From: a virus | Strand: one strand, 5' to 3' | Virus record (IMG/VR): IMGVR_UViG_3300032224_000679 | Span: 1-64,000 of that record | DNA length: 64,000 bases | Part shown: piece by piece, positions 2,182 through 36,033 of the stretch | Layout: every line of letters starts with the position of its first letter | Numbering within the stretch: position 1 is the first letter of the stretch | Position numbers and translations under genes: made by a program | Notes under the pieces: generated by a model | Seen by the model: only the letters and a program-made list of their open reading frames with translations | The model's database searches: none | What the model was told of the DNA's origin: nothing

Positions 2182-3277
2182 CTATACTGCTATTGACGAA
2201 TATCAAATTGAAATTACAAGTTACTGTAATGCTGCCTGCCCACAGTGCCCTAGGAATAATCTGGGTGTGGGCATTAATCCTTATATGCCTTTGACGCATT
2301 TACCACGTGCAACTATTGATCAAGCATTTGACACCGAATTGTGTCAGCGGTTAAGACAAGTATTTTTCTGCGGCAGTTATGGTGATCCAATAATGCACCC
2401 AGACTTCTTAGAAATATTACGCGACTTTAGATATAAAAGTCCTACACTGTGGTTGTACATACACACTAATGGCGGAATGCATGATCCTGAATACTGGGCA
2501 GAGATAGCCCGCATCATGAACGGCTATGGGCAAATAGACTTCGGCATTGACGGCTTAGAGGATACTTTACATCTGTACAGAAAGAATGTAAAATACAGCA
2601 CTGCTATTGCTAATGCACAAGCATTTATCAATGTTGGTGGCAGAGCACAATGGAATTTTATTGTTTTTAAACATAACGAACATCAAGTCGAGCAAGTTCA
2701 ACAACTGGGACAAGACATGGGTTTTCACAATGTGTTGATCCGTAAAACTGGAAGATTTTTGAATCACACTACTATGACTGAGTTAGATGCTTGGCCTGTT
2801 GCTAATGCAGAACATGTACTAGAACCACCCAGCAAAGAAGAATATAGAAATCGTAGTATGCAATACTTGCCAGATCTTAAGAAACAATATATCAATATTA
2901 AAGATTACTTTGACACTACACCTATACGTTGTGATGCATTAATGGGCAAGAAAGTTGCCATTAACGCCGAAGGTGTAGTATTACCTTGTAATTTTTTTAA
3001 TCATAACTTGTATGATGTTAGATTTAGAGATGGTGTATTGCCTGGAGCAAATCCATTGAGCACAGTCAATGGCAAAAATCAAGTACGTGAGTTTTTGGAA
3101 AATTACGGGTTAGAAAACTTAAACATACACAATAAAACATTGCCAGAAATATTTGATAATGAGTTTTGGCAGGACCTTGTAGCATCGTTCAATAACAGCA
3201 ACAGACTATTTGAATGTGCCATGACCTGTGGTGAGAAATTTACAAAAGTATGGGATCAAGGAGGATCCAAAAGATGA
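2174..3277 (+). CDS. Radical SAM protein with C-terminal SPASM/twitch-like Cys motifs
   Basis: CNAACPQC (CxxxCxxC), GSYGDP and HTNGG motifs, C-terminal C...GVVLPC...CAMTC; TTG start overlapping the gp46 stop. Confidence 0.88.
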   Translation: MFNYTAIDEYQIEITSYCNAACPQCPRNNLGVGINPYMPLTHLPRATIDQAFDTELCQRLRQVFFCGSYGDPIMHPDFLEILRDFRYKSPTLWLYIHTNGGMHDPEYWAEIARIMNGYGQIDFGIDGLEDTLHLYRKNVKYSTAIANAQAFINVGGRAQWNFIVFKHNEHQVEQVQQLGQDMGFHNVLIRKTGRFLNHTTMTELDAWPVANAEHVLEPPSKEEYRNRSMQYLPDLKKQYINIKDYFDTTPIRCDALMGKKVAINAEGVVLPCNFFNHNLYDVRFRDGVLPGANPLSTVNGKNQVREFLENYGLENLNIHNKTLPEIFDNEFWQDLVASFNNSNRLFECAMTCGEKFTKVWDQGGSKR

Positions 3278-3858
3278 AAATGTTAGTAACAGGTGGTAAT
3301 AGAGGATTAGGACAACATTTAGTAGATGCGTTTGGCGCGGACAGCGCAAGTCGTAGTAATGGATTTGATATCAATCACAACACACATGAAATTGCCGCAC
3401 TGAGTTTGGAATACGATGTGTTTGTGAACAACGCATTTGATGGCCCTCCGCAGGAGTTGTGGGCCGACTTTGGACAAGCACAGATATATTTTGCTGTTTA
3501 CGATGCGTGGAAAACAGCTGGAAAATCTGGTTGGATTATTAATATCGGTAGTTCGGGAGAAAAGCACATTGTTGCGCCTGAACCTAGATTTGAAACGTAT
3601 AGAGTTAGCAAGGCTGCACTAAGTCATGCCAGCAAACAAGGCACACAAGCATTCAAACAAAACTTAGTTCCTTTTAGAACTACATTAATTACATTAGATA
3701 GATTAGACACAGAACTTAGCCGTAGCCGCCCAACATGGACTGGAAATGGCATTAATCTGTCAGATGTTAGCGATTTTATTCATTATGGCACAAAAGTTAG
3801 TACCAATACTTGCATAGAAGAAATAACATTTTATTGTAACTTTGAGTTTAAGGCATAA
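3274..3858 (+). CDS. Short-chain dehydrogenase/reductase (SDR) family protein
   Basis: LVTGGNRGLG (TGxxxGxG), VFVNNA, IINIGS, YRVSK (YxxxK). The ATG at 3274 overlaps the upstream TGA and follows GGAGGA, so the track start at 3250 is too early. Confidence 0.88.
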   Translation: MKMLVTGGNRGLGQHLVDAFGADSASRSNGFDINHNTHEIAALSLEYDVFVNNAFDGPPQELWADFGQAQIYFAVYDAWKTAGKSGWIINIGSSGEKHIVAPEPRFETYRVSKAALSHASKQGTQAFKQNLVPFRTTLITLDRLDTELSRSRPTWTGNGINLSDVSDFIHYGTKVSTNTCIEEITFYCNFEFKA

Positions 3859-3861
3859 TTA
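3856..3861 (+). promoter_or_regulatory. Variant late promoter (TAATTA) 6 nt before the GIY-YIG ATG
   Basis: One mismatch to the TAAATA motif, same spacing to ATG as the other leaderless cases. Confidence 0.45.
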
Positions 3862-3867
3862 TGTTAC

Positions 3868-4296
3868 ATGACATGGATTTATCAAGGAACTACAGTAGAA
3901 TCCCTACCGGAAGATTGTGTGGGGTTTGTCTATTTGATTACAAATAACGTATCGGGTAGAAAATACATCGGTAAAAAACTAGCAAAATTTGCAAAGACAA
4001 CATATAAAGTAGTAAAACTTAAAAACGGAACTAAGAAAAAGAAAAAGATTCGAAGCAAAGTTGACAGCGATTGGCAAGAATATTATGGCTCAAACGATCA
4101 ACTAAACAAAGATGTAGAAACTTTGGGCAAAGAAAATTTTACTAGAGAAATTATATTTTATTGTCGATCAAAAGCAGAATGCAGTTACATAGAAGCAAGA
4201 GAACAGTTTACACACAAGGTATTGGAATCAGCAGACTATTACAACGGACAAATTTCAGTTCGTGTACATGGATCACATATTAAAGACAAATTATAA
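3868..4296 (+). CDS. Small GIY-YIG family endonuclease-like protein
   Basis: GFVYLITN...RKYIGKK, YYGS, conserved E (YIEAREQ) and YYN; 142 aa with a basic insert KLKNGTKKKKKIRSK. Confidence 0.85.
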   Translation: MTWIYQGTTVESLPEDCVGFVYLITNNVSGRKYIGKKLAKFAKTTYKVVKLKNGTKKKKKIRSKVDSDWQEYYGSNDQLNKDVETLGKENFTREIIFYCRSKAECSYIEAREQFTHKVLESADYYNGQISVRVHGSHIKDKL

Positions 4297-5150
4297 TGAA
4301 CAAGTTAATTGTTGTTAATTGGATAGCAGGCACTGCCGGAGATTTAGTAACAGCGTTACTATCAACGAATTCATCGTTTAGAGCTGGGACTAAAAACTTC
4401 GCAGTTAATTCTGCTGGCAGAGTCTCTGTAGACTATGACAACGAAATTTTGCAGTTATTTCCAAAACAACCAAAAACACATTGGTACAACAGAGATTGGG
4501 GCAATGACTTAGATAAACTGTCACAATTACCTTATGATTTTATTATTCAAACTACATCTGAACAACAACTTATCAAATTAAAAAACCATTTTGGTAGCAA
4601 TATAACAACAATTAGTATATCATACGACACAAATTTAAAATTTTGCGTACTGAAGAATTTTTGTAGCAAAGTATTGGACAGCGATGATTATCTAACCAAA
4701 GATGATGTAGGTGAGAATTTTTTAAATGCAGTCAGCAAAACAGAACAACAACGACAACAATTTATTAATTTAGGAAAAAACAGAAAGTTAGGGGAGTGGT
4801 ATTTTAAGCATTATTTAGAAAATGCGTTAAGCTACCCCCCTGAAAAATTTTCAACACCCAGCGACGTAAACTTAAATTTGGACAATATATTAAACGAAAC
4901 AAAATTTTCAACAGAACTAAAAAATTTAAACAACATAGTAGATTTTGAATACAACACAGCATTATCATTTTATCAATCATGGATTAAACTTCAAGACCCG
5001 CTATACACTGCACCCAGCAACTATAAATATAAAGACTTACTAGGCTATAATAAAACTTTCAATATCAGTGATCATCACTTTCTCCCTGACACCACGTCTG
5101 CTTTCAACGATTTATTGATTCAAAATAAATCCAATTTAATTACAATTTAA
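4296..5150 (+). CDS. Hypothetical protein, possibly P-loop/sulfotransferase-like fold
   Basis: N-terminal strand-loop-helix IVVNWIAGTAGDLVTALL; very AT-rich; fold assignment is weak. Confidence 0.55.
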   Translation: MNKLIVVNWIAGTAGDLVTALLSTNSSFRAGTKNFAVNSAGRVSVDYDNEILQLFPKQPKTHWYNRDWGNDLDKLSQLPYDFIIQTTSEQQLIKLKNHFGSNITTISISYDTNLKFCVLKNFCSKVLDSDDYLTKDDVGENFLNAVSKTEQQRQQFINLGKNRKLGEWYFKHYLENALSYPPEKFSTPSDVNLNLDNILNETKFSTELKNLNNIVDFEYNTALSFYQSWIKLQDPLYTAPSNYKYKDLLGYNKTFNISDHHFLPDTTSAFNDLLIQNKSNLITI

Positions 5151-5500
5151 CATTATAGGCACTGTGCTGAGTGTTTGACTCAGCCCCATTGAGGATATGT
5201 GAAATACCATATTCAGACTTGGGCGCCAAAGAACAATGCTAACTTCAGGCATAAATGGTTCGGGCTCTGTGAAACAGATACAACCCGTGCTCGTAGGATT
5301 TGGGTCTATTCCGGATTACTAGGGTTCCGTTGACATGTGAAGCTAGAGTAGGGGGTACAGGTCAACCGCCTCCGCGCTGTAAAGCAATCTCTTTAGAATA
5401 GATGACTGTGCTACTCGGATGATGCACATTTTTCACCCTGTTAGGGTGAATTGTGACCGATTAATCTGGATGATACTATTAATCGCTTTGCTCTTAAAGA
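5151..5500 (+). ncRNA. Candidate large structured non-coding RNA of unknown class
   Basis: ORF-free and more GC-rich than its flanks; many helices (5166-72/5178-84, 5193-99/5208-14, 5304-11/5396-5403, 5432-39/5443-50, 5458-65/5478-85); loop-loop complement GTTGAC/GTCAAC; G-U pairs favour the + strand. Confidence 0.65.
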
Positions 5501-5508
5501 AAAGAAAA

Positions 5509-5554
5509 TAGTACTGAGCGATAGCGAAAGTACTGGACCTTGCGTAGCAAGTCC
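5509..5554. other. Two adjacent compact hairpins with GC-GATA-GC and GC-GTA-GC caps
   Basis: TAGTACT..GCGATAGC..AGTACTG and GGAC-C-TTGC-GTA-GCAA-GTCC at the convergence of two transcription units. Confidence 0.5.
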
Positions 5555-5773
5555 TTAAAAGAATGGCAATCCTGTTTCTTTAGCAACGTCTAAGTTCTCA
5601 GTGATCATATCATTAATAAGTTCTCTATCATGATAACTAGTTGTCCATGCTTCTTCTAATGACATGCCACCTCTCATATACCAACACATTTTAATTAATG
5701 ATTTCTTTAAGGCTTTTGACTCATTATCTAATTGTTTGAGCCATTCAACGACTTCCTCATTGGATAAAGTCAA
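5555..5773 (-). CDS. Small baseplate-hub/tail assembly chaperone segment (T4 gp51-like), probably the -1 frameshift extension of the upstream gene
   Basis: 72-aa ORF with TTG start and no clear SD; lies in the -1 frame of the gp26-like gene. Confidence 0.65.
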   Translation of the reverse strand: MTLSNEEVVEWLKQLDNESKALKKSLIKMCWYMRGGMSLEEAWTTSYHDRELINDMITENLDVAKETGLPFF

Positions 5774-5778
5774 AAGCC

Positions 5779-6624
5779 TTAGCCGAAAAAACTTGATAGT
5801 TCAAATCTCAATGGTGCTGTGTAGTTTTTCATGCATGGTTCATTTTCGCAGTGTACTGGAATATTTTTCAGTGCATCAGCTTCGCCAATTTCAGTAATTC
5901 TATCTCTAACTGCATGCCATATGGGCCTATCACAATTTGCAAAAAACTCAGTGAGTTGTGCAGGATCTGATACCACTAGTCCGTCGGGCATTTTTATTCC
6001 TGCTACATTATTGGATACTTGTTTTACAGTCATATCTAATACACTACGAAACAGTTGATTAAATTTTATTAGTTTCTCAGTTTCGGAAATAGATTCGTTT
6101 TGTACAACCGACAGTAATCTTTGCTCCTCATATGATTTCATACTAGCACGGTTAAAGTCCAAGAAACTCAAAGGTTTTAAATAAATTTCTAAATCTTCTA
6201 CTAATATAGGTGTGTCAAAATCTGGACATTTAATTGTGTTTAATAAAAATTCTAGATCTGCTGCATGATCATTTTTGCTTCCACAGTGTGGGCATACACT
6301 GACAAATTCCATACGATTTCCGTAGGTAGCAATTCTTATAGCAATTAATATACTATCTAAGTCTGTGCTGGGAATTTTCCAAGCATCTTTAATAGCAGGG
6401 CAGCAACTTTGAATTACATCCACAGTACTTTGACCATTTAACAGTGCGTCAGGTGTTTTGCTGGCCAGTTCGTCTCTAGCAGTCATAGCATAAACTGGCA
6501 ATTCCCCAGTTACTGGTAATTCAACGCCACCTGCCCACCATTTACCCCCACTGGGTAGTTTTAAGTGTAGTTGGGGCTGTCTAAAGTATTTTGTTAACGG
6601 GTTTGAATGAGTTTGGTCCACCAT
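5779..6624 (-). CDS. Baseplate hub assembly protein, T4 gp26-like
   Basis: LKLPSGG, MTARDE, DLDSILIAIRIATYG, CPHC and C-terminal CxxxxC, ends in SSFFG; position next to the tape-measure-like gene. Confidence 0.8.
   Translation of the reverse strand: MVDQTHSNPLTKYFRQPQLHLKLPSGGKWWAGGVELPVTGELPVYAMTARDELASKTPDALLNGQSTVDVIQSCCPAIKDAWKIPSTDLDSILIAIRIATYGNRMEFVSVCPHCGSKNDHAADLEFLLNTIKCPDFDTPILVEDLEIYLKPLSFLDFNRASMKSYEEQRLLSVVQNESISETEKLIKFNQLFRSVLDMTVKQVSNNVAGIKMPDGLVVSDPAQLTEFFANCDRPIWHAVRDRITEIGEADALKNIPVHCENEPCMKNYTAPLRFELSSFFG
5785..5791 (-). other. Candidate -1 ribosomal frameshift site T TTT TTC
   Basis: X XXY YYZ heptamer one codon before the stop; the -1 frame runs open into ORF 5555..5773. 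Confidence 0.6.
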
Positions 6625-6637
6625 ATTTTGATTCCAA

Positions 6638-6654
6638 TAAATATACTATACTTA
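6638..6654. promoter_or_regulatory. Overlapping divergent late promoters (TAAATA on +, TAAGTA on -)
   Basis: TAAATA 6638-6643 (+) and TACTTA 6649-6654 (TAAGTA on -) in the 56-bp gap between divergent genes. Confidence 0.6.
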
Positions 6655-6680
6655 TCTGGATTTTAACCCAATTTTAAATT

Positions 6681-8657
6681 ATGAGCGACATTGACCCAGC
6701 CCAAATACAAAATCTAATGAACTCGTTAAATCTAACGAGTGCTCAAGCAGAAGATGTTGCAAGATCATTAGGCCGATTAAGCCAATCATCTAGGGGTGCA
6801 GCCAATGCCGCAGACGCACAAAGAGATGCGACTGGTCGTCTTATCAGTAGCTATGACAGTTTAAAAACTGGATTCAGCGGGTTAGGGCAAGGTATTGGTT
6901 CTGCGGCACAAGGTATTAATACACTAACATCCAGCGTGGGATCTACACGTGATATGTTCATGGCATTGATACCAAGTATTAATTTTGCACATGATATATT
7001 CAATAAACTGGTTCTTTCTACTGGAGGCTTTGCTAGTGCGTTAACACAAGCCGCAGAAGGTTTGCCTAGTTTATTTGGTAAAATTGCTGGTGCTATGCAT
7101 GCATCTGGCGAAACGTTTAAAAAAGTTATTTTGGCAGCTGGTGATATTGCGTTTAATGCTGCCAAGACTCAAGTTTCAGAAACACAAAAACTAGTAAACG
7201 AATTTAAGGCCATGGCTGATGCGGGCATGACATTTGGTGGTAGTTTTGAAGCCGCGACAGCGGCTGCACATGCCGCAGGCGTTAGCATGGAAACATTTTC
7301 ATCTTTTGCATCCAAAAGTGCAGCCAATCTAGCCTTAATTGGTACAAGTTCACAATCAGCCGCAGGGATGATTATGAAAATGGCCAAGGATGTAAGCCCG
7401 GGTTTAATGGACATATACGGTTCTATGGACAACATAGCCAGTGAAATGGCAAACTATGTTGCGCTACAAACTGGATTAGGTGTTGATGCAGTTAAAAATC
7501 AAAAAGAACTTGAAGAAGGTGCTAAACGATATCTGTTAAACGAAAGAGAAATGAGTAATTTAACAGGTAAAAAAGTAGATCAGCTAAGACAAGAAGAAAA
7601 ACAAAGACAACAGTCAGCAGCATATCAATTAAAGATGCAAGAACTGGACCCAGCACAACAAGCAAATCAGAAGTTCCTATTTGATATGCTTACTAAACAG
7701 TATGGAGAATTAGGCTCACGAATGGCCATGAATCAATTGTTGAATGGTGATGCTTCTGCTGGTAATCCAGACCTTATGAGATTAGAATCACAAGTGCCTA
7801 AGTTATTCGAAACAGTTAATGGTATGGCACGTAATATCAATTTAGATTCTGAAACTTTTAAACGAACTGTTGGAGAAACTCTAGCAAGCTCAGCTGACCC
7901 AATTAAAGATCAAATTAAAGGATTACAACCTTTATTGACTTATGCCGCATCTGGTATAGGTAATGATATCTTTAATCAATTGAATAAGTTACTTGCACCT
8001 GTCTTGGGATCTTACAGTGAACAAGTAAATTCCCCTGCAGCCGTGGCAGCATCTATACAGAATTTCAATGCCGCAATGTCTAATACTGGTAGTATGGTTG
8101 ATAGTATGACTGCGGCAATTGAAAAAATGAAACGAGCACTCGAAGGTGTGACTATACAGAATTTAGATATGGTAAGCGATGCAATAACATTAGCTACCGG
8201 CTTAATAAAACCCGACGGTGCATACGTAGAAGCACTTGGCACTGCAAGGAAATTATTTTCAGCATTGGCAGACCCAACAGATGCTAACAAGTGGCTTGCT
8301 GTATTAGATAAATTAGGTAAGGATTTAACTCCTATAGGTGATACGATTGGGGGTACAGTTGCTCCACCTCGTCGTCCTGATGATCCTACTCCTAGAACTC
8401 ATCCTATAGAACAGTTGACAGAAAAAATTGAAGAACTAATACAAACAATAAAAAATTGGAGTCCAATTAGAACAAGTTCTGCAGATGCAGACTTGCCTGT
8501 ACTTGCTTCTGCCAGCAGAATCAATCGTTCACCAACTCCAGAAACTGATCCAGTGTTGCTTGCACTACAAGATCAAAATAGAATATTAGAAGACGTGGCT
8601 CAACATTCAAAAGACACTGTTGACATGCAAGGAAAAATATTGAATGCTCTAGCATAA
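6681..8657 (+). CDS. Tape-measure-like / baseplate hub protein
   Basis: 658 aa, Ala/Gly/Ser-rich helical sequence, adjacent to the hub chaperone genes. Confidence 0.6.
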   Translation: MSDIDPAQIQNLMNSLNLTSAQAEDVARSLGRLSQSSRGAANAADAQRDATGRLISSYDSLKTGFSGLGQGIGSAAQGINTLTSSVGSTRDMFMALIPSINFAHDIFNKLVLSTGGFASALTQAAEGLPSLFGKIAGAMHASGETFKKVILAAGDIAFNAAKTQVSETQKLVNEFKAMADAGMTFGGSFEAATAAAHAAGVSMETFSSFASKSAANLALIGTSSQSAAGMIMKMAKDVSPGLMDIYGSMDNIASEMANYVALQTGLGVDAVKNQKELEEGAKRYLLNEREMSNLTGKKVDQLRQEEKQRQQSAAYQLKMQELDPAQQANQKFLFDMLTKQYGELGSRMAMNQLLNGDASAGNPDLMRLESQVPKLFETVNGMARNINLDSETFKRTVGETLASSADPIKDQIKGLQPLLTYAASGIGNDIFNQLNKLLAPVLGSYSEQVNSPAAVAASIQNFNAAMSNTGSMVDSMTAAIEKMKRALEGVTIQNLDMVSDAITLATGLIKPDGAYVEALGTARKLFSALADPTDANKWLAVLDKLGKDLTPIGDTIGGTVAPPRRPDDPTPRTHPIEQLTEKIEELIQTIKNWSPIRTSSADADLPVLASASRINRSPTPETDPVLLALQDQNRILEDVAQHSKDTVDMQGKILNALA

Positions 8658-8663
8658 TATAGG

Positions 8664-8669
8664 TAAATA
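8664..8669 (+). promoter_or_regulatory. Late promoter motif TAAATA (portal)
   Basis: Recurrent motif upstream of structural genes; resembles T4 late promoter TATAAATA. Confidence 0.65.
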
Positions 8670-8691
8670 TCTAACTAAAGAGATTTTTAAA

Positions 8692-10416
8692 ATGACTTGG
8701 AAAAAGTATTTTCGTACGGCCAGTACTACATCGGGTGCAATTAGCCCGATTAGTGGAGTCACTGCTGGCAGCCCTCAATTTGGTTACAAAAACTACCAAA
8801 GTAATTTACCAGAGGTTTATATTGGGCATCCGAATCGTATTGAACGTTATAACCAATACGAACAAATGGACATGGACAGTGAAGTTAATGCCGCACTGGA
8901 TATCTTAGCTGAGTTTAGTACACAAGACAACGAAGAAAACGGCACTGCTTTTAGTTTTTACTGGAAAGAAAAGCCCACAGACAACGAAGTAAAAATCATA
9001 CGTGAACAGCTAACACAGTGGGTTAGCTTAAACGAATTCAACAAACGTATATTCAAAATGTTCCGTAATACAATCAAATACGGTGATCAAGTGTTTATAC
9101 GTGACCCTGAAACATTTAAATTGTTTTGGGTGGAAATGAGCAAAGTTACAAAGATTATTGTCAACGAAGCCAAAGGCAAAGAGCCTGAACAGTATATTTT
9201 AAAAGACGTTGCGCCTAATTTCCAAAATTTAACAGCTACAGCAATTACTAATACTGACATTAGCGTTAATCACCCACAAGTGGGCGGAGGCAGTGGTGCA
9301 TATATACAACCTAAAAATCCCTACAGCGGCGGCAGTAGATTCAGTCATGCACAAAACGAAACAGCCATTAATGCTGAACACATTGTACATTTGACACTAA
9401 CTGAAGGATTAGATTTTAGCTGGCCTTTTGGCAATTCGGTATTAGAAAATGTTTTCAAAGTATTCAAACAAAAAGAATTACTAGAAGATGCTATCATTAT
9501 CTACCGTGTACAACGTGCGCCAGAACGTAGAGTCTTTAAAATTGACGTAGGTAACATGCCTGCACACATGGCTATGGCATTTGTGGATCGTGTTAAAAAC
9601 GAAATTGCACAGCGTAGAATTCCTACACAAACTGGTGGTGGTCAAAATATGATGGATGCTACGTACAACCCATTGTCAACTAACGAAGATTTCTTCTTCC
9701 CACAAACTGCTGATGGTAGGGGTAGTAGTGTTGAACCTTTGCCTGGTGGACAAAACTTAGGTGAAATCACAGACTTGCACTTCTTTACTAACAAGTTGTT
9801 CCGTGGATTACGTATTCCTGCTAGCTATTTGCCCACAGGATTAGACGATGGAACTAGTAATCCCAATACATTTAGTGATGGTAGAGTTGGCACAGCACTG
9901 ATTCAAGAATGGCGGTTCAACCAATACTGTATGCGTTTACAGCGTATGATTGTTGAAAAACTGGATCAAGAATTTAAAATGTTCTTACGTTGGCGAGGTA
10001 TTAACATAGATAATAACTTGTTTGAGTTAAACTTTAACGAGCCACAAAACTTTGCTAGCTATCGTCAAGCAGAAGTTGACCAAGCTAGAATTACATCATT
10101 CACACAATTAGAAGCATTTCCTTATCTAAGCAAGCGTTTCTTGTTAACTCGTTATTTGGGATTGACTGAAGAAGAAATGAGCGACAACGAGCGTATGTGG
10201 GCCGAAGAGCAAGGTGATACAGAAAAAGCACCAGCAGAGGAAGCAGGATTACGTAGTGTTGGTATTAGTCCAGGTGGATTAGATTCTGACATACAAAATG
10301 CAGAAATGCCAGCAGCACCTGAAGGGGAAGGCATGCCAGGTGCACCATCTCCAGGAGGGGCTCCTGCAGGCGGAGCAGGTCCGGCAGCAGGCCCAGCACC
10401 AGTTCCGGCAAGTTAA
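8692..10416 (+). CDS. Portal protein, T4 gp20-like
   Basis: LLEDAIIIYRVQRAPERRVFKIDVGNMP, EDFFFP, LPGGQNLG, LFRGLRIP motifs; Pro/Ala/Gly-rich tail. Confidence 0.96.
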   Translation: MTWKKYFRTASTTSGAISPISGVTAGSPQFGYKNYQSNLPEVYIGHPNRIERYNQYEQMDMDSEVNAALDILAEFSTQDNEENGTAFSFYWKEKPTDNEVKIIREQLTQWVSLNEFNKRIFKMFRNTIKYGDQVFIRDPETFKLFWVEMSKVTKIIVNEAKGKEPEQYILKDVAPNFQNLTATAITNTDISVNHPQVGGGSGAYIQPKNPYSGGSRFSHAQNETAINAEHIVHLTLTEGLDFSWPFGNSVLENVFKVFKQKELLEDAIIIYRVQRAPERRVFKIDVGNMPAHMAMAFVDRVKNEIAQRRIPTQTGGGQNMMDATYNPLSTNEDFFFPQTADGRGSSVEPLPGGQNLGEITDLHFFTNKLFRGLRIPASYLPTGLDDGTSNPNTFSDGRVGTALIQEWRFNQYCMRLQRMIVEKLDQEFKMFLRWRGINIDNNLFELNFNEPQNFASYRQAEVDQARITSFTQLEAFPYLSKRFLLTRYLGLTEEEMSDNERMWAEEQGDTEKAPAEEAGLRSVGISPGGLDSDIQNAEMPAAPEGEGMPGAPSPGGAPAGGAGPAAGPAPVPAS

Positions 10417-11836: not shown

Positions 11837-12472
11837 ATGAACTTATTAAGAGAACATTTAACCTTTGATAATGCCAGGATGGAACTCCTAGCAGAGTCAA
11901 CTGCTGACGGCAAAGGTAAGAATCTCTATATGAAGGGTATATTTGTTCAAGGCGGAGTTAAAAACGCTAACCAACGTGTATACCCAGTTCAAGAAATTGC
12001 TCAAGCTGTTGAAACTATTAACACACAAATCAAAGATGGTTATAGCGTATTAGGCGAACTAGATCATCCAGATGATTTAAAAATTAACTTAGACCGAGTA
12101 TGTCACATGATTACAGACATGTGGATGGATGGCCCTAACGGCTTCGGTAAGTTAAAAATTCTTCCAACTCCAATGGGACAACTAGTAACAACTATGTTGG
12201 AAAGTGGAGTGAAGCTAGGTGTTTCGAGCAGAGGTAGCGGTAACGTTAACGAAGGTTCGGGGCATGTCAGTGACTTTGAAATAGTCACAGTTGATATAGT
12301 TGCACAACCCAGTGCGCCTAATGCATATCCAAAAGCTGTTTACGAAGGGCTTATGAATATGCGTGGAGGTCACAGAGTTCTCGATATGGCGAAAGATGCC
12401 GGTGCAAATCAAAAGGTCCAGAAGTATTTGCAAGAGGAAGTAAGACGCCTCATCAAAGACTTAAAAATATAA
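11837..12472 (+). CDS. Prohead core protease, T4 gp21-like
   Basis: NANQRVYP, LGELDHP, LGVSSRGSG, DIVAQPSAPNAY; preceded by TAAGTA-attac-ATG. Confidence 0.96.
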   Translation: MNLLREHLTFDNARMELLAESTADGKGKNLYMKGIFVQGGVKNANQRVYPVQEIAQAVETINTQIKDGYSVLGELDHPDDLKINLDRVCHMITDMWMDGPNGFGKLKILPTPMGQLVTTMLESGVKLGVSSRGSGNVNEGSGHVSDFEIVTVDIVAQPSAPNAYPKAVYEGLMNMRGGHRVLDMAKDAGANQKVQKYLQEEVRRLIKDLKI

Positions 12473-35754: not shown

Positions 35755-35756
35755 TT

Positions 35757-35984
35757 ATGGCAACAATAGCAACTAGAATTACTGCTGACGGGATATTCTA
35801 CTCTCGAGGGGAATTAGACGAAGTCACAAAGACTACGATAAGTGTCACGCCAAATAATGTATTTGCGGCTCAATTTGACGAAGTTAGTATAAGTCCTGTT
35901 AGCAACGGACTTGCCAAAAGAGAATATTTCAATGGTAATTTGCAAGTGGGTGGATATTTTGATGAGGTAACTGGGATTACTTAA
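35757..35984 (+). CDS. Small protein with three [FL]DEV[TS] repeats (fibre-associated)
   Basis: ELDEVT, QFDEVS, YFDEVT within 75 aa; 2 nt after the protein 3 stop. Confidence 0.65.
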   Translation: MATIATRITADGIFYSRGELDEVTKTTISVTPNNVFAAQFDEVSISPVSNGLAKREYFNGNLQVGGYFDEVTGIT

Positions 35985-36021
35985 TGGTTTTGTGTCGCAT
36001 TTGGCACTTTAAAAGTTCGAA

Positions 36022-36027
36022 TAAATA
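36022..36027 (+). promoter_or_regulatory. Late promoter motif TAAATA, 6 nt before ATG
   Basis: TAAATA-taaaat-ATG(36034). Confidence 0.65.
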
Positions 36028-36033
36028 TAAAAT

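What the first reader, a model, noticed from the sequence alone, without database searches (positions are those of the whole stretch)
5151..5500. Undescribed ~350-400-nt structured non-coding RNA with a kissing-loop pseudoknot
Seen: this is the only long ORF-free stretch in an otherwise densely packed 64 kb, and it is more GC-rich than its flanks. Helices: GCTGAGT/ACTCAGC (5166-72/5178-84); GGATATG/CATATTC (5193-99/5208-14) inside CCCA/TGGG; CGGG..TCTGT-GAA-ACAGA..CCCG (5261-87); long-range GTCTATTC/GAATAGAT (5304-11/5396-5403). The long-range helix encloses two hairpins (CTAG..TTC/GAA..CTAG and GGGGGT/GCCTCC) whose loops carry the exact complements GTTGAC (5329-34) and GTCAAC (5361-66). Further helices are TTCACCCT/AGGGTGAA (5432-50) and CGATTAAT/ATTAATCG (5458-85). 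Several mismatches are G-U on the + strand, which argues for a + strand RNA. It lacks tRNA, tmRNA, RNase P and group I/II signatures that I can recognise. Inference: a new phage RNA class (ribozyme, scaffold/guide, packaging RNA or replication primer).
Basis: partly seen in the sequence, partly recalled or inferred. Interest (0 to 1): 0.85.

Follow-up and report, generated by a model that had tools for sequence, protein, structure and literature searches.

The report
Knotted twin-box RNA gene of lake phages
The gene-free gap holds a real, intricately folded, doubly knotted non-coding RNA gene shared by well over a hundred uncultured T4-like lake phages. It carries the same fast-changing 7-letter word twice, only a sister branch's front part is catalogued (Rfam Polynucleobacter-1), and its job is still unknown.

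Summary
Window 5151-5554 is the only ORF-free stretch over 300 nt in the window. It encodes a genuine plus-strand structured RNA: core about 5160-5490, plus two 3' hairpins to 5554.

- **Homologues.** One 17-nt core motif retrieved 119+ viral contigs, and nearly all are true homologues.
- **Structure.** Across 36 window-type sequences, 82.9% of cells pair. The covariation score is 0.300 against 0.143 in shuffles (0/500).
- **Kissing loop.** Its variable pair is Watson-Crick in 113/113 sequences and uses all four pair types.
- **Other helices.** The long-range helix is also real. Three reader helices are not conserved, and I found two others.
- **Strand.** G.U outnumbers A.C 396 to 103 on the plus strand.
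- **Databases.** Rfam, ARAGORN and 50,697 GenBank phage records give nothing for the window. In the sister branch, which includes the window's closest relative L002, the first ~140 nt are Rfam Polynucleobacter-1 (RF01718, function unknown).
- **Twin boxes.** GGAUGAU at 5417-23 and 5468-74 are identical in about 100 of 105 relatives and change together.
- **Partner.** No complementary partner turned up in the RNA, its flanks or the genome.
- **Nuclease.** The neighbouring small GIY-YIG nuclease is not an obligate partner.

This scan has met the same family before on other genomes. Function is unknown. Best guess: a free-standing trans-acting scaffold RNA.

The parts
5160..5490 (+). Core of the structured RNA gene (type-A 'twin-box' RNA)
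   Evidence: Conserved and covarying across 36 type-A homologues (A1). G.U 396 against A.C 103 on the + strand. No Rfam or tRNA match.
5166..5184 (+). P1 hairpin (5166-72/5178-84)
   Evidence: 6 of 7 pairs change on both sides; 85% of cells paired.
5185..5223 (+). P2 (5185-88/5220-23) enclosing P2a (5193-99/5208-14)
   Evidence: P2: 98.6% paired, all 4 pairs compensatory. P2a: all 7 pairs compensatory.
5236..5252 (+). P3 hairpin with conserved loop UAACUUAAG
   Evidence: 4 of 5 pairs compensatory. The loop is nearly invariant.
5261..5287 (+). P4 (5261-64/5284-87) plus P4a (5268-70/5280-82) with conserved loop GAAAAAGAU-like
Evidence: 94-100% paired. Pair types UA/GC/AU/CG and UA/CG.
5291..5296 (+). 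5' strand of candidate closing helix P13 (pairs with 5451-5456)
   Evidence: 6 pairs. All variation is wobble-compatible transitions (U/C opposite G, A/G opposite U). Support is moderate only.
5297..5317 (+). P5 hairpin (5297-5302/5312-5317). Its loop is the 5' strand of the long-range pseudoknot.
   Evidence: 93.5% paired, 5 of 6 pairs compensatory, 82 G.U against 1 A.C.
5304..5311 (+). Long-range pseudoknot helix, 5' strand (pairs with 5396-5403)
   Evidence: Type A: 80% paired, 6 of 8 pairs compensatory. Type B equivalent: 93.8% paired, 6 of 7 compensatory.
5329..5334 (+). Kissing-loop 5' strand GTTGAC (pairs with 5361-5366 GTCAAC)
   Evidence: The variable pair is A-U 45, U-A 56, G-C 8, C-G 4, with 0 exceptions in 113 sequences. 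98.6% paired in A1 and 97.9% in A2.
5345..5348 (+). P12 5' strand AGAG (pairs with CUCU 5389-5392). It closes a junction holding P7 and P8.
   Evidence: Pair 5345-5392 is TA 17, AT 15, GC 2. In type B, 3 of 4 pairs are compensatory.
5351..5373 (+). P7 hairpin (5351-56/5368-73). Its loop carries the invariant core GGUACNGGNCAACCGCC and the 3' kissing strand.
   Evidence: 99.5% paired; the closing pair is GC 26 / AU 10. The core motif retrieved 119+ loci.
5376..5385 (+). P8 mini-hairpin with GNRA loop (GUAA here, GAAA in most)
   Evidence: All 3 pairs compensatory.
5396..5403 (+). Long-range pseudoknot helix, 3' strand
   Evidence: Same evidence as for 5304-5311.
5417..5423 (+). Box 1: GGAUGAU, in the loop of a variable hairpin (5407-11/5424-28 in the window)
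   Evidence: Identical to box 2. MI with the same position of box 2 is 0.99-1.06 for word positions 1 and 5 and 0.43 for position 7 in the 36 type-A sequences; other columns reach at most 0.47. In the 105-sequence set position 7 is identical in 102 of 105. 15+ different words occur in the family.
5432..5450 (+). P10 hairpin between the boxes
   Evidence: 96% paired, 4 of 8 pairs compensatory.
5451..5456 (+). 3' strand of candidate helix P13 (conserved UURUGA)
5468..5474 (+). Box 2: GGAUGAU
   Evidence: Fitch changes on a tree of 105 sequences: box 1 45, box 2 46, joint state 46.
5510..5554 (.). Two hairpins, T1 (5510-15/5529-34, conserved loop GAGCGAUAGCGAAA) and T2 (5535-43/5547-54), after an A-rich linker
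   Evidence: The stems covary (helices 20-23). The hairpins stay with the RNA even where gp51 lies kilobases away. They show no + strand G.U bias (GU 12 against AC 20), and the A-run before T1 reads as a U-run on the - strand. They may be a terminator for leftward transcription or a bidirectional one.
5119..5146 (+). Weak sigma-70-like promoter match (TTCAAA-16-TACAAT) just upstream of the RNA
   Evidence: 9 of 12 matches; the whole scan found no more sites than shuffles give. A lead only.
3868..4296 (+). Small GIY-YIG protein (142 aa, SegE-type domain), the usual upstream neighbour of this RNA family
   Evidence: PF19835, E 6.6e-34. It lies directly upstream of the RNA in most loci.
4296..5150 (+). 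284-aa ORF of no known family, inserted between the nuclease gene and the RNA in this phage
   Evidence: No Pfam or PHROG hit. Absent at this place in the closest relative L002.
5555..6624 (-). Convergent baseplate-hub genes (72-aa gp51-like ORF and gp26, PF12322)
   Evidence: Synteny is conserved in most loci.

Best explanation
SHOWN. Window about 5160-5490, with two 3' hairpins to 5554, is a plus-strand non-coding RNA gene. It is a 'type-A' member of a large family found in uncultured T4-like (Kyanoviridae-like) freshwater phages.

The RNA has a branch-specific 5' domain (P1-P4). This is followed by a conserved core with two pseudoknots:
- the loop of hairpin P5 pairs with 5396-5403;
- the loop segment 5329-34 kisses the loop of hairpin P7 at 5361-66.

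After the core comes a tail that displays the same hypervariable 7-nt purine-rich word twice (GGAUGAU at 5417-23 and 5468-74), on either side of hairpin P10.

The family is homologous, through this core, to RNAs whose 5' domain is Rfam Polynucleobacter-1.

INFERRED. The RNA is a gene in its own right, not a guide for the neighbouring GIY-YIG nuclease and not a leader or 3'UTR element. It acts in trans. The knotted scaffold holds the two identical words so that they engage one partner at two equivalent sites. The most likely partner is two copies of a complementary pyrimidine-rich nucleic-acid sequence. A two-fold symmetric partner is the alternative. The partner differs between phage lineages.

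My odds: real RNA gene of this family about 0.95; independent of the nuclease about 0.75; the two-site trans-recognition mechanism about 0.3.
For: - **Homologues.** 119+ viral contigs carry the core motif, and blastn shows nearly all are true relatives.
- **Covariation.** A1: 82.9% paired, score 0.300 against 0.143, 0/500 shuffles. A2 core: 94.6% paired, 0.277 against 0.109.
- **Kissing pair.** 113/113 Watson-Crick with four pair types.
- **Strand.** G.U 396 against A.C 103.
- **Twin boxes.** The words are identical in 101-104 of 105 sequences at each position. There are about 45 parsimony changes per box, and the joint state changes only 46 times. In the 36 type-A sequences the only strongly informative column for word positions 1 and 5 is the same position of the other box; position 7 shows no such signal there.
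- **RNA without the nuclease.** At least 8 loci with 3.3 kb or more held upstream carry the RNA but no GIY-YIG homologue.
- **RNA separated from the nuclease.** An 0.8-1.8 kb insert separates the two in about 12 loci, including this window.
- **Nuclease without the RNA.** The nuclease family occurs in 500 cultured T4-like phages. The one checked (Melnitz) has no RNA downstream. The RNA is in none of 50,697 GenBank phage records.
- **No coupling.** No nuclease residue tracks the box word; MI is at most 0.37 of about 1.0 bit.
Against: - No partner was found.
  - No complementary column exists inside the RNA.
  - Own-word complements are not enriched within about 5 kb (68 against 57.7 expected, p=0.09).
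  - The best site in the 85-kb genome fragment is an 11-mer expected by chance.
- A trans partner would need three coordinated mutations per switch, which fits poorly with how often the words change.
- No expression data exist, so transcript ends, promoter and abundance are unknown.
- The nuclease gene is still the immediate or near neighbour in about 100 of 107 loci.
Confidence: 0.45

Rival explanations
1. The two boxes contact each other directly inside the folded RNA, position i with position i. This could be a parallel-stranded run of homo-base pairs or another symmetric tertiary motif. The words would then be a structural element, and the RNA's activity (ribozyme, scaffold, cage-forming RNA like ROOL or GOLLD) would lie elsewhere.
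For: The covariation is identity, not complementarity. It is as tight and as frequent as in ordinary helices (joint changes 46 against 45 and 46 singly). That is most economical if one change needs only one compensating change. No third covarying partner exists in the RNA or its flanks. The words are purine-rich.
Against: I know of no natural precedent for a 7-nt parallel homo-paired RNA element (own knowledge). Words containing C and U also occur. Nothing here tests geometry. The stems around the boxes vary between branches.
Confidence: 0.2
2. The RNA is the partner of the adjacent minimal GIY-YIG nuclease. This 142-aa protein has a catalytic domain and no DNA-binding domain. The RNA would guide or regulate it, with the boxes specifying targets.
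For: The nuclease gene lies directly or closely upstream in about 100 of 107 loci. It is far better conserved than neighbouring structural genes: mean identity 0.72 against 0.40 for gp26. Weinberg et al. already noted the linkage with this gene family. The protein is essentially a bare catalytic domain.
Against: The RNA occurs without the nuclease in at least 8 loci. The nuclease family occurs in 500 cultured phages, and the RNA is in no GenBank phage record. Insertions separate the two genes in about 12 loci, including this window. No protein residue covaries with the box word. Seven nucleotides is too short for a specific guide.
Confidence: 0.1
3. The RNA is a decoy for a homodimeric RNA-binding protein, CsrA/RsmA-like. 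The two loop words would be the two binding sites of one dimer.
For: The window's loop 1, UACUCGGAUGAU, resembles the CsrA SELEX consensus RUACARGGAUGU (recalled from the literature, not tested here). The two sites are 51 nt apart. GGA-containing words are common.
Against: More than half of the family has AGA instead of GGA at that place (58 of 105). Rare words such as ACGAAAU and AUAGCAG have no GGA. A constant host protein does not explain concerted change of both boxes.
Confidence: 0.07
4. The element acts in cis. It could be a 3' UTR stabiliser or processing element of the upstream mRNA, or a barrier between the two convergent transcription units.
For: It lies between convergent genes. It ends in two hairpins, and the first is preceded by an A-run that reads as a U-run on the minus strand. 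No conserved late promoter lies upstream. Weinberg et al. 2010 rated the motif as possibly cis-regulatory.
Against: About 330 nt with two pseudoknots, GNRA loops and invariant loops is far more than a terminator or stabiliser needs. The upstream gene varies: GIY-YIG, the 284-aa ORF, or others. The element is kept intact through these changes.
Confidence: 0.08
5. It is a DNA-level element (replication origin, packaging site or recombination site) and not an RNA.
For: The twin boxes are direct repeats. One relative (L007) lacks the segment between them, as if it had been deleted by repeat recombination.
Against: Compensatory changes keep pairing. There is a strong plus-strand G.U bias, for example P5 82 against 1 and P7 71 against 0. 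DNA-level constraints do not produce that.
Confidence: 0.03

Closest known systems
Polynucleobacter-1 RNA motif (Rfam RF01718; Weinberg et al. 2010, Genome Biol 11:R31, PMC2864571)
   Same: It belongs to the same larger RNA family. In type-B relatives, including the window phage's closest relative L002, RF01718 matches the first ~140 nt at 68-120 bits. That domain is followed by the same core as in the window: kissing loop, long-range helix, P12, P10 and twin boxes. It has the same habitat (fresh water), the same upstream gene family and the same unknown function.
   Different: The window's own 5' domain (P1-P4) is a different sequence and fold. It does not match RF01718 even at E<=10. The Rfam model covers neither the pseudoknotted core nor the twin boxes. 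The 2010 description treats a 141-nt motif, not a 350-450-nt RNA.
Large phage-associated structured RNAs of unknown function (GOLLD, ROOL; Rfam)
   Same: Long, ornate, pseudoknotted RNAs carried by phages, found by comparative genomics, with no known function.
   Different: No sequence or structure match. The window's RNA is smaller, has a different genomic neighbourhood (baseplate-hub genes and a GIY-YIG gene, with no tRNA gene in the window), and has the twin-box feature.
Guide-bearing RNAs next to nucleases or recombinases (HEARO/omega RNA of IscB and TnpB, IS110 bridge RNA)
   Same: A structured RNA encoded beside a small nuclease gene, carrying short hypervariable words in loops.
   Different: No Rfam match. 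The words are only 7 nt and identical to each other. The RNA and the nuclease each occur alone. No target was found. The resemblance is by analogy only.

Membership tests
Rfam RF01718 Polynucleobacter-1 | Scores at or above the family's gathering score (37 bits) against the covariance model | tested here: not met
   No hit in the window at gathering score, nor at E<=10 over 5000-5700. 15 type-B loci score 68-120 bits.
Rfam RF01718 Polynucleobacter-1 | Lies downstream of a GOS11034 / PSSM2_218-like gene (Weinberg 2010 supplement) | tested here: inconclusive
   The small GIY-YIG gene is upstream, but a 284-aa ORF separates it from the RNA here. I did not test whether this gene is the GOS11034 family.
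Twin-box RNA family (informal; type A plus type B) | Invariant core GGUACNGGNCAACCGCC in the P7 loop, kissing CCGYUGN upstream | tested here: met
   Window 5354-5370 and 5327-5334. The pair covaries 113/113.
Twin-box RNA family (informal; type A plus type B) | Long-range pseudoknot between the P5 loop and a strand 3' of P8, plus helix P12 closing P7 and P8 | tested here: met
   5304-11/5396-5403 and 5345-48/5389-92. Compensatory changes occur in both branches.
Twin-box RNA family (informal; type A plus type B) | Two identical 7-nt words after ACUC and UCU, flanking hairpin P10 | tested here: met
   GGAUGAU at 5417-23 and 5468-74.
Group I / group II introns | Match to the intron covariance models; interrupted host gene with exons on both sides | tested here: not met
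   No Rfam hit. The flanks are a complete ORF with its own stop codon and a convergent gene.
tRNA / tmRNA / RNase P RNA | ARAGORN or Rfam detection | tested here: not met
   0 genes by ARAGORN in the whole window. No Rfam hit.
GOLLD / ROOL / OLE / HEARO large RNAs | Match to the Rfam models | tested here: not met
RNA-guided nuclease system | Obligate co-occurrence of RNA and nuclease, and a target complementary to the variable word | tested here: not met
   Each occurs without the other. No enriched complement was found. No protein-word covariation.

The most novel reading that the evidence does not exclude
The two identical, concertedly evolving 7-nt words are a programmable recognition module held by a doubly knotted scaffold. 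They could be a two-site guide that bridges two copies of a partner nucleic acid, or a natural parallel homo-paired RNA element. Either would make this a new functional class of large phage RNA.
Probability: 0.25. Interest if true: 0.9.

Novelty: new variant of a known kind. Interest (0 to 1): 0.66.

Why it matters
Large, intricately folded RNAs with several tertiary contacts have almost always turned out to do sophisticated biochemistry, as ribozymes, riboswitches or RNP scaffolds.

This one is widespread in abundant freshwater T4-like phages. It is better conserved than their baseplate genes and is absent from every cultured phage sequence. The literature knows it only as a 141-nt fragment of a sister branch.

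Its identity-type covariation is unusual: two loops always carry the same hypervariable word, and ordinary RNA pairing rules do not explain that. Finding the partner, or showing that the boxes pair with each other, would give either a new mode of RNA-based recognition in phage infection or a new RNA structural principle.

The alignments, helices and boundaries given here are enough to build a full-length covariance model and to design probing and pull-down experiments.

Tried and rejected
- **Rfam.** The whole window at gathering score and 5000-5700 at E<=10 gave only noise: snoU13 at 17 bits, RCNMV_TE_DR1 at 11 bits.
- **ARAGORN.** No tRNA or tmRNA.
- **Single-sequence folding.** z = -1.15 (+) and -1.97 (-), not informative.
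- **GenBank phages.** blastn with the window RNA and with L002's RNA found no match.
- **Own genome fragment.** Only one copy of the RNA.
- **Expression.** No RNA holder is listed. Contigs of two runs labelled 'RNA?', probably DNA, were laid on 3800-6700 and cover only conserved parts of relatives. This says nothing about expression, strand or ends.
- **Genome-contig scan with the 17-nt motif.** The 120 rows returned are all chance hits, and none is homologous by blastn. Earlier notes of bacterial copies therefore remain untested here.
- **Partner for the boxes.** All four searches were negative.
  - Mutual information within the RNA.
  - G.U-tolerant complements inside each RNA: own 296 against 322 permuted.
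  - Own-word complements or copies within about 5 kb: p=0.09 and 0.26.
  - Best sites in the 85-kb genome: an 11-mer at 12063, at chance level.
- **T4 late promoter.** No TATAAATA within the 330 nt held upstream of the core motif. The sigma-70 scan found no more sites than shuffles give, and no canonical terminator.
- **Nuclease versus box word.** No coupling.
- **PDB sequence search of the nuclease.** Only a marginal hit to a mobile-intron GIY-YIG protein, 3r3p, E 0.18.
TCTGT/ACAGA, CTAG/CTAG and CGATTAAT/ATTAATCG.
- **Ideas considered and dropped.**
  - tRNA anticodon-loop pairing: the word's position 2 would face the always-purine position 37.
  - Antiparallel box1-box2 pairing: not complementary.
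  - Palindromic self-dimerisation through AUCURGAU: not kept in the rare-word variants.
Full report
**Context.** The window is part of an 85-kb IMG/VR virus record of a T4-like myovirus. The stretch 5151-5554 lies between two sets of genes:
- a plus-strand 284-aa ORF of no known family (4296-5150);
- two convergent minus-strand baseplate-hub genes, a 72-aa gp51-like ORF (5555-5773) and gp26 (5779-6624, PF12322).

One gene further upstream is a 142-aa GIY-YIG protein (3868-4296, PF19835 SegE-type, E 6.6e-34).

With ORFs of at least 80 aa, 5151-5778 is the only uncovered stretch over 300 nt in the 64 kb. Its GC content (0.445-0.47) exceeds that of the flanks (0.28-0.35).

**Is it a known RNA?** No Rfam family reaches its gathering score anywhere in the window. 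A permissive scan of 5000-5700 gives only noise. ARAGORN finds no tRNA or tmRNA. The single-sequence fold is no better than shuffles (z -1.15 and -1.97). The case therefore rests on comparison with relatives.

**Relatives.** The gp26 protein retrieved two syntenic viral contigs. In both, the GIY-YIG gene is followed directly by an ORF-free stretch of about 440 nt that shows compensatory changes.

blastn shows that nearly all are true homologues.

The homologues fall into two main sequence types according to their 5' domain:
- type A, 38 loci including the window;
- type B, 58 loci including L002;
- about 16 singletons.

Synteny is strong. The order is GIY-YIG gene (+), RNA (+), a variable 0-3 kb stretch, then gp51 and gp26 (-).

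**Structure.** I mapped the window's helices onto a 36-sequence type-A alignment (A1) and counted pairs:

| Measure | Observed | Shuffled | Partners slid |
|---|---|---|---|
| Cells paired (101 pairs) | 82.9% | 73.2% | - |
| Covariation score | 0.300 | 0.143 (0/500 shuffles reach it) | 0.05-0.09 |

Helices that are well supported:

| Helix | Window coordinates |
|---|---|
| P1 | 5166-72/5178-84 |
| P2 | 5185-88/5220-23 |
| P2a | 5193-99/5208-14 |
| P3 | 5236-40/5248-52 |
| P4 and P4a | 5261-64/5284-87 and 5268-70/5280-82 |
| P5 | 5297-5302/5312-17 |
| Long-range helix | 5304-11/5396-5403 |
| P7 | 5351-56/5368-73 |
| P8 (GNRA loop) | 5376-78/5383-85 |
| P10 | 5432-39/5443-50 |
| 3' hairpins T1 and T2 | 5510-5554 |

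The long-range helix uses the loop of P5, so it is a pseudoknot.

Extracted by pattern from all loci, its variable pair is A-U in 45 sequences, U-A in 56, G-C in 8 and C-G in 4, with no exception in 113.

A scan for further covarying stacks produced two additions:
- P12, [A/U]GAG/CUC[U/A] at 5345-48/5389-92, with pair 5345-5392 as TA 17, AT 15, GC 2.
- P13, a candidate closing helix at 5291-96/5451-56, supported only by wobble-compatible transitions.

The same core holds in type B (A2). There, 94.6% of cells pair and the covariation score is 0.277 against 0.109. The long-range helix has compensatory changes at 6 of 7 pairs and P12 at 3 of 4.

**Strand and coding.** In the modelled helices, G.U pairs outnumber A.C 396 to 103 on the plus strand. 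In P5 the count is 82 to 1 and in P7 71 to 0. The RNA is therefore read from the plus strand.

The two terminal hairpins show no such bias (12 against 20). The first is preceded by an A-run, which is a U-run on the other strand. They may stop leftward transcription or act in both directions.

The alignments have indels that are not multiples of three, and helices evolve by compensation. The window's longest stop-free frame in the stretch is 44 aa, and I saw no conserved ORF.

**Relation to the known motif.** Earlier notes of this scan named Rfam Polynucleobacter-1 as the closest known family, and I tested this. In 15 type-B loci, RF01718 matches the first ~140 nt of the RNA end to end at 68-120 bits. 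The type-A loci searched (L022, L067, L075, L077) and the window give nothing.

The 2010 paper lists the motif as a candidate RNA from Burkholderiales and fresh water or estuary samples. Its supplement says the motif lies downstream of a GOS11034 / PSSM2_218-like gene and was found in no purified phage. No other paper in the library mentions it.

The family is thus partly catalogued. The window's 5' domain, the pseudoknotted core and the tail are not.

**Twin boxes.** While reading A1 and A2, I saw that ACUC-RGAURAU and UCU-RGAURAU vary in the same way. In the window both words are GGAUGAU (5417-23 and 5468-74).

- After fixing obvious misalignments, the two words are identical in about 100 of 105 sequences that have both.
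- At least 15 different words occur.
- On a tree built from the rest of the 3' domain, box 1 changes 45 times, box 2 46 times and the joint state 46 times. Nearly every change is shared. The tree is short and noisy, so the absolute counts are inflated; the coupling itself is robust.
- In the 36 type-A sequences, mutual information with the same position of the other box is about 1.0 bit for word positions 1 and 5. No other column of the RNA exceeds 0.47. Position 7 scores only 0.43 there, no better than background.

**Search for a partner.** All tests were negative:
- no covarying column inside the RNA;
- no excess of G.U-tolerant complements to a sequence's own word inside the RNA (296 against 322 permuted);
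- no significant excess of own-word complements or copies within about 5 kb (68 against 57.7, p 0.09; 98 against 91.5, p 0.26);
- in the 85-kb genome, only an 11-mer at 12063 that chance explains.

**Relation to the nuclease.**

*For a link.* The gene is adjacent or near in about 100 of 107 loci. The protein is much better conserved than gp26 (mean identity 0.72 against 0.40; Spearman 0.13 between the two sets of distances).

*Against an obligate pair.*
- At least 8 loci with 3.3 kb or more held upstream have the RNA but no homologue of the protein.
- About 12 loci, including this window, have 0.8-1.8 kb inserted between the two genes.
- The protein family occurs in 500 cultured T4-like phage records: cyanophages, Methylophilales phage Melnitz at 50% identity, and others.
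- Melnitz has only a 148-nt gap after the gene.
- No GenBank phage record carries the RNA.
- No residue of the protein tracks the box word.

**This window in particular.** Its closest relative L002 (gp26 91% identical, GIY-YIG 94%) carries a type-B RNA directly behind the nuclease gene. The window instead has the 284-aa ORF plus a type-A 5' part.

- The window's 5' part (5151-5402) is closest to type-A loci: L122 at 88% and L067 at 83%.
- Its 3' part (5403-5554) is closest to L107 and L002 (82% and 80%), against 74-76% for type-A loci.

This suggests a cassette exchange with a breakpoint inside the RNA gene, just before the box module. It also suggests that the 5' part and the box module are interchangeable units.

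**What it most likely is and does.**

*Shown.* It is a plus-strand, doubly pseudoknotted RNA gene of a large phage family, displaying two identical hypervariable words.

*Inferred.* It is a free-standing trans-acting RNA whose scaffold presents the two words to one partner at two equivalent sites (about 0.3).

*Main rival.* The two boxes touch each other, position for position, inside the fold (about 0.2). This explains the frequent concerted switches more economically but has no precedent that I know of.

*Less likely.* A nuclease RNP, a decoy for a dimeric RNA-binding protein, a cis-acting element or a DNA-level element. The rival explanations give the reasons.

**Expression.** This could not be assessed. 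No RNA run is listed as holding the stretch, and the two doubtful runs laid were uninformative.

**Novelty.** This scan met the same family before on other genomes and reached similar conclusions. In print, only the 141-nt front domain of the sister branch exists. I rate the window's RNA a new variant of a known but functionally uncharacterised kind.

Noticed in passing
window 4296-5150: A 284-aa ORF with no Pfam or PHROG family sits between the GIY-YIG gene and the RNA. It is absent at this place in the closest relative L002. A distant homologue (31% identity) lies further upstream in L023.
   Followed up: partly
window 5151-5554 compared with L002, L107, L122, L067: The RNA looks chimeric. 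Its 5' part is closest to type-A loci (88% to L122). Its 3' box module is closest to the type-B RNAs of the phage's nearest relatives (82% and 80%, against 74-76% for type A). This points to recombination inside the RNA gene near 5403.
   Followed up: partly
window 5510-5534 (hairpin T1): The loop GAGCGAUAGCGAAA is conserved while the stem covaries. Inside the loop, a 2-bp mini-helix covaries (GC..GC, AC..GU, GU..AC) and is flanked by GA/GA, resembling a kink-turn or loop-E motif. A.C exceeds G.U here (9 against 2), hinting at function on the minus strand.
   Followed up: partly
L007 about 8255-8731: This type-B relative lacks the segment from box 1 through hairpin P10 and keeps a single box. 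It looks like a deletion by recombination between the two direct repeats, though it could be an assembly artefact.
   Followed up: no
window 5330 and 5359 (Y of CCGYUG and N of GGUACNGG): These two unpaired positions are associated across loci: U with C 89, U with A 12, C with A 8, C with C 4 (Fisher p 8e-5, not corrected for phylogeny). This may be a tertiary contact beside the kissing helix.
   Followed up: partly
type-B loci, about 110 nt upstream of the core motif (e.g. L002 around 2995-3005): A constant AUUGUUU in the Polynucleobacter-1 domain can pair, through G.U wobbles, with every RGAURAU word. The window's type-A domain has no equivalent.
   Followed up: no
11 type-B loci, +178 to +211 from the core motif: A T4 late-promoter-like TATAAATA lies directly after hairpin T2, presumably serving a downstream plus-strand gene. 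No such motif lies within the 330 nt held upstream of the RNA's core motif in any locus.
   Followed up: no
window 12063-12073: ATCATCCAGAT is an exact 11-nt complement of loop 2 (AUCUGGAUGAU). About 0.3 such matches are expected by chance in this genome fragment.
   Followed up: partly
window 35755-36033: The only other stretch of 200 nt or more without an ORF of 80 aa or more (279 nt, GC 0.37). No Rfam hit.
   Followed up: no
window 3868-4296 and phage records: The 142-aa GIY-YIG protein is a near-core gene of cultured T4-like cyanophages and relatives. It is annotated inconsistently there as 'NAD synthetase', 'homing endonuclease' or 'hypothetical protein'; the NAD synthetase label looks like an annotation error.
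   Followed up: partly
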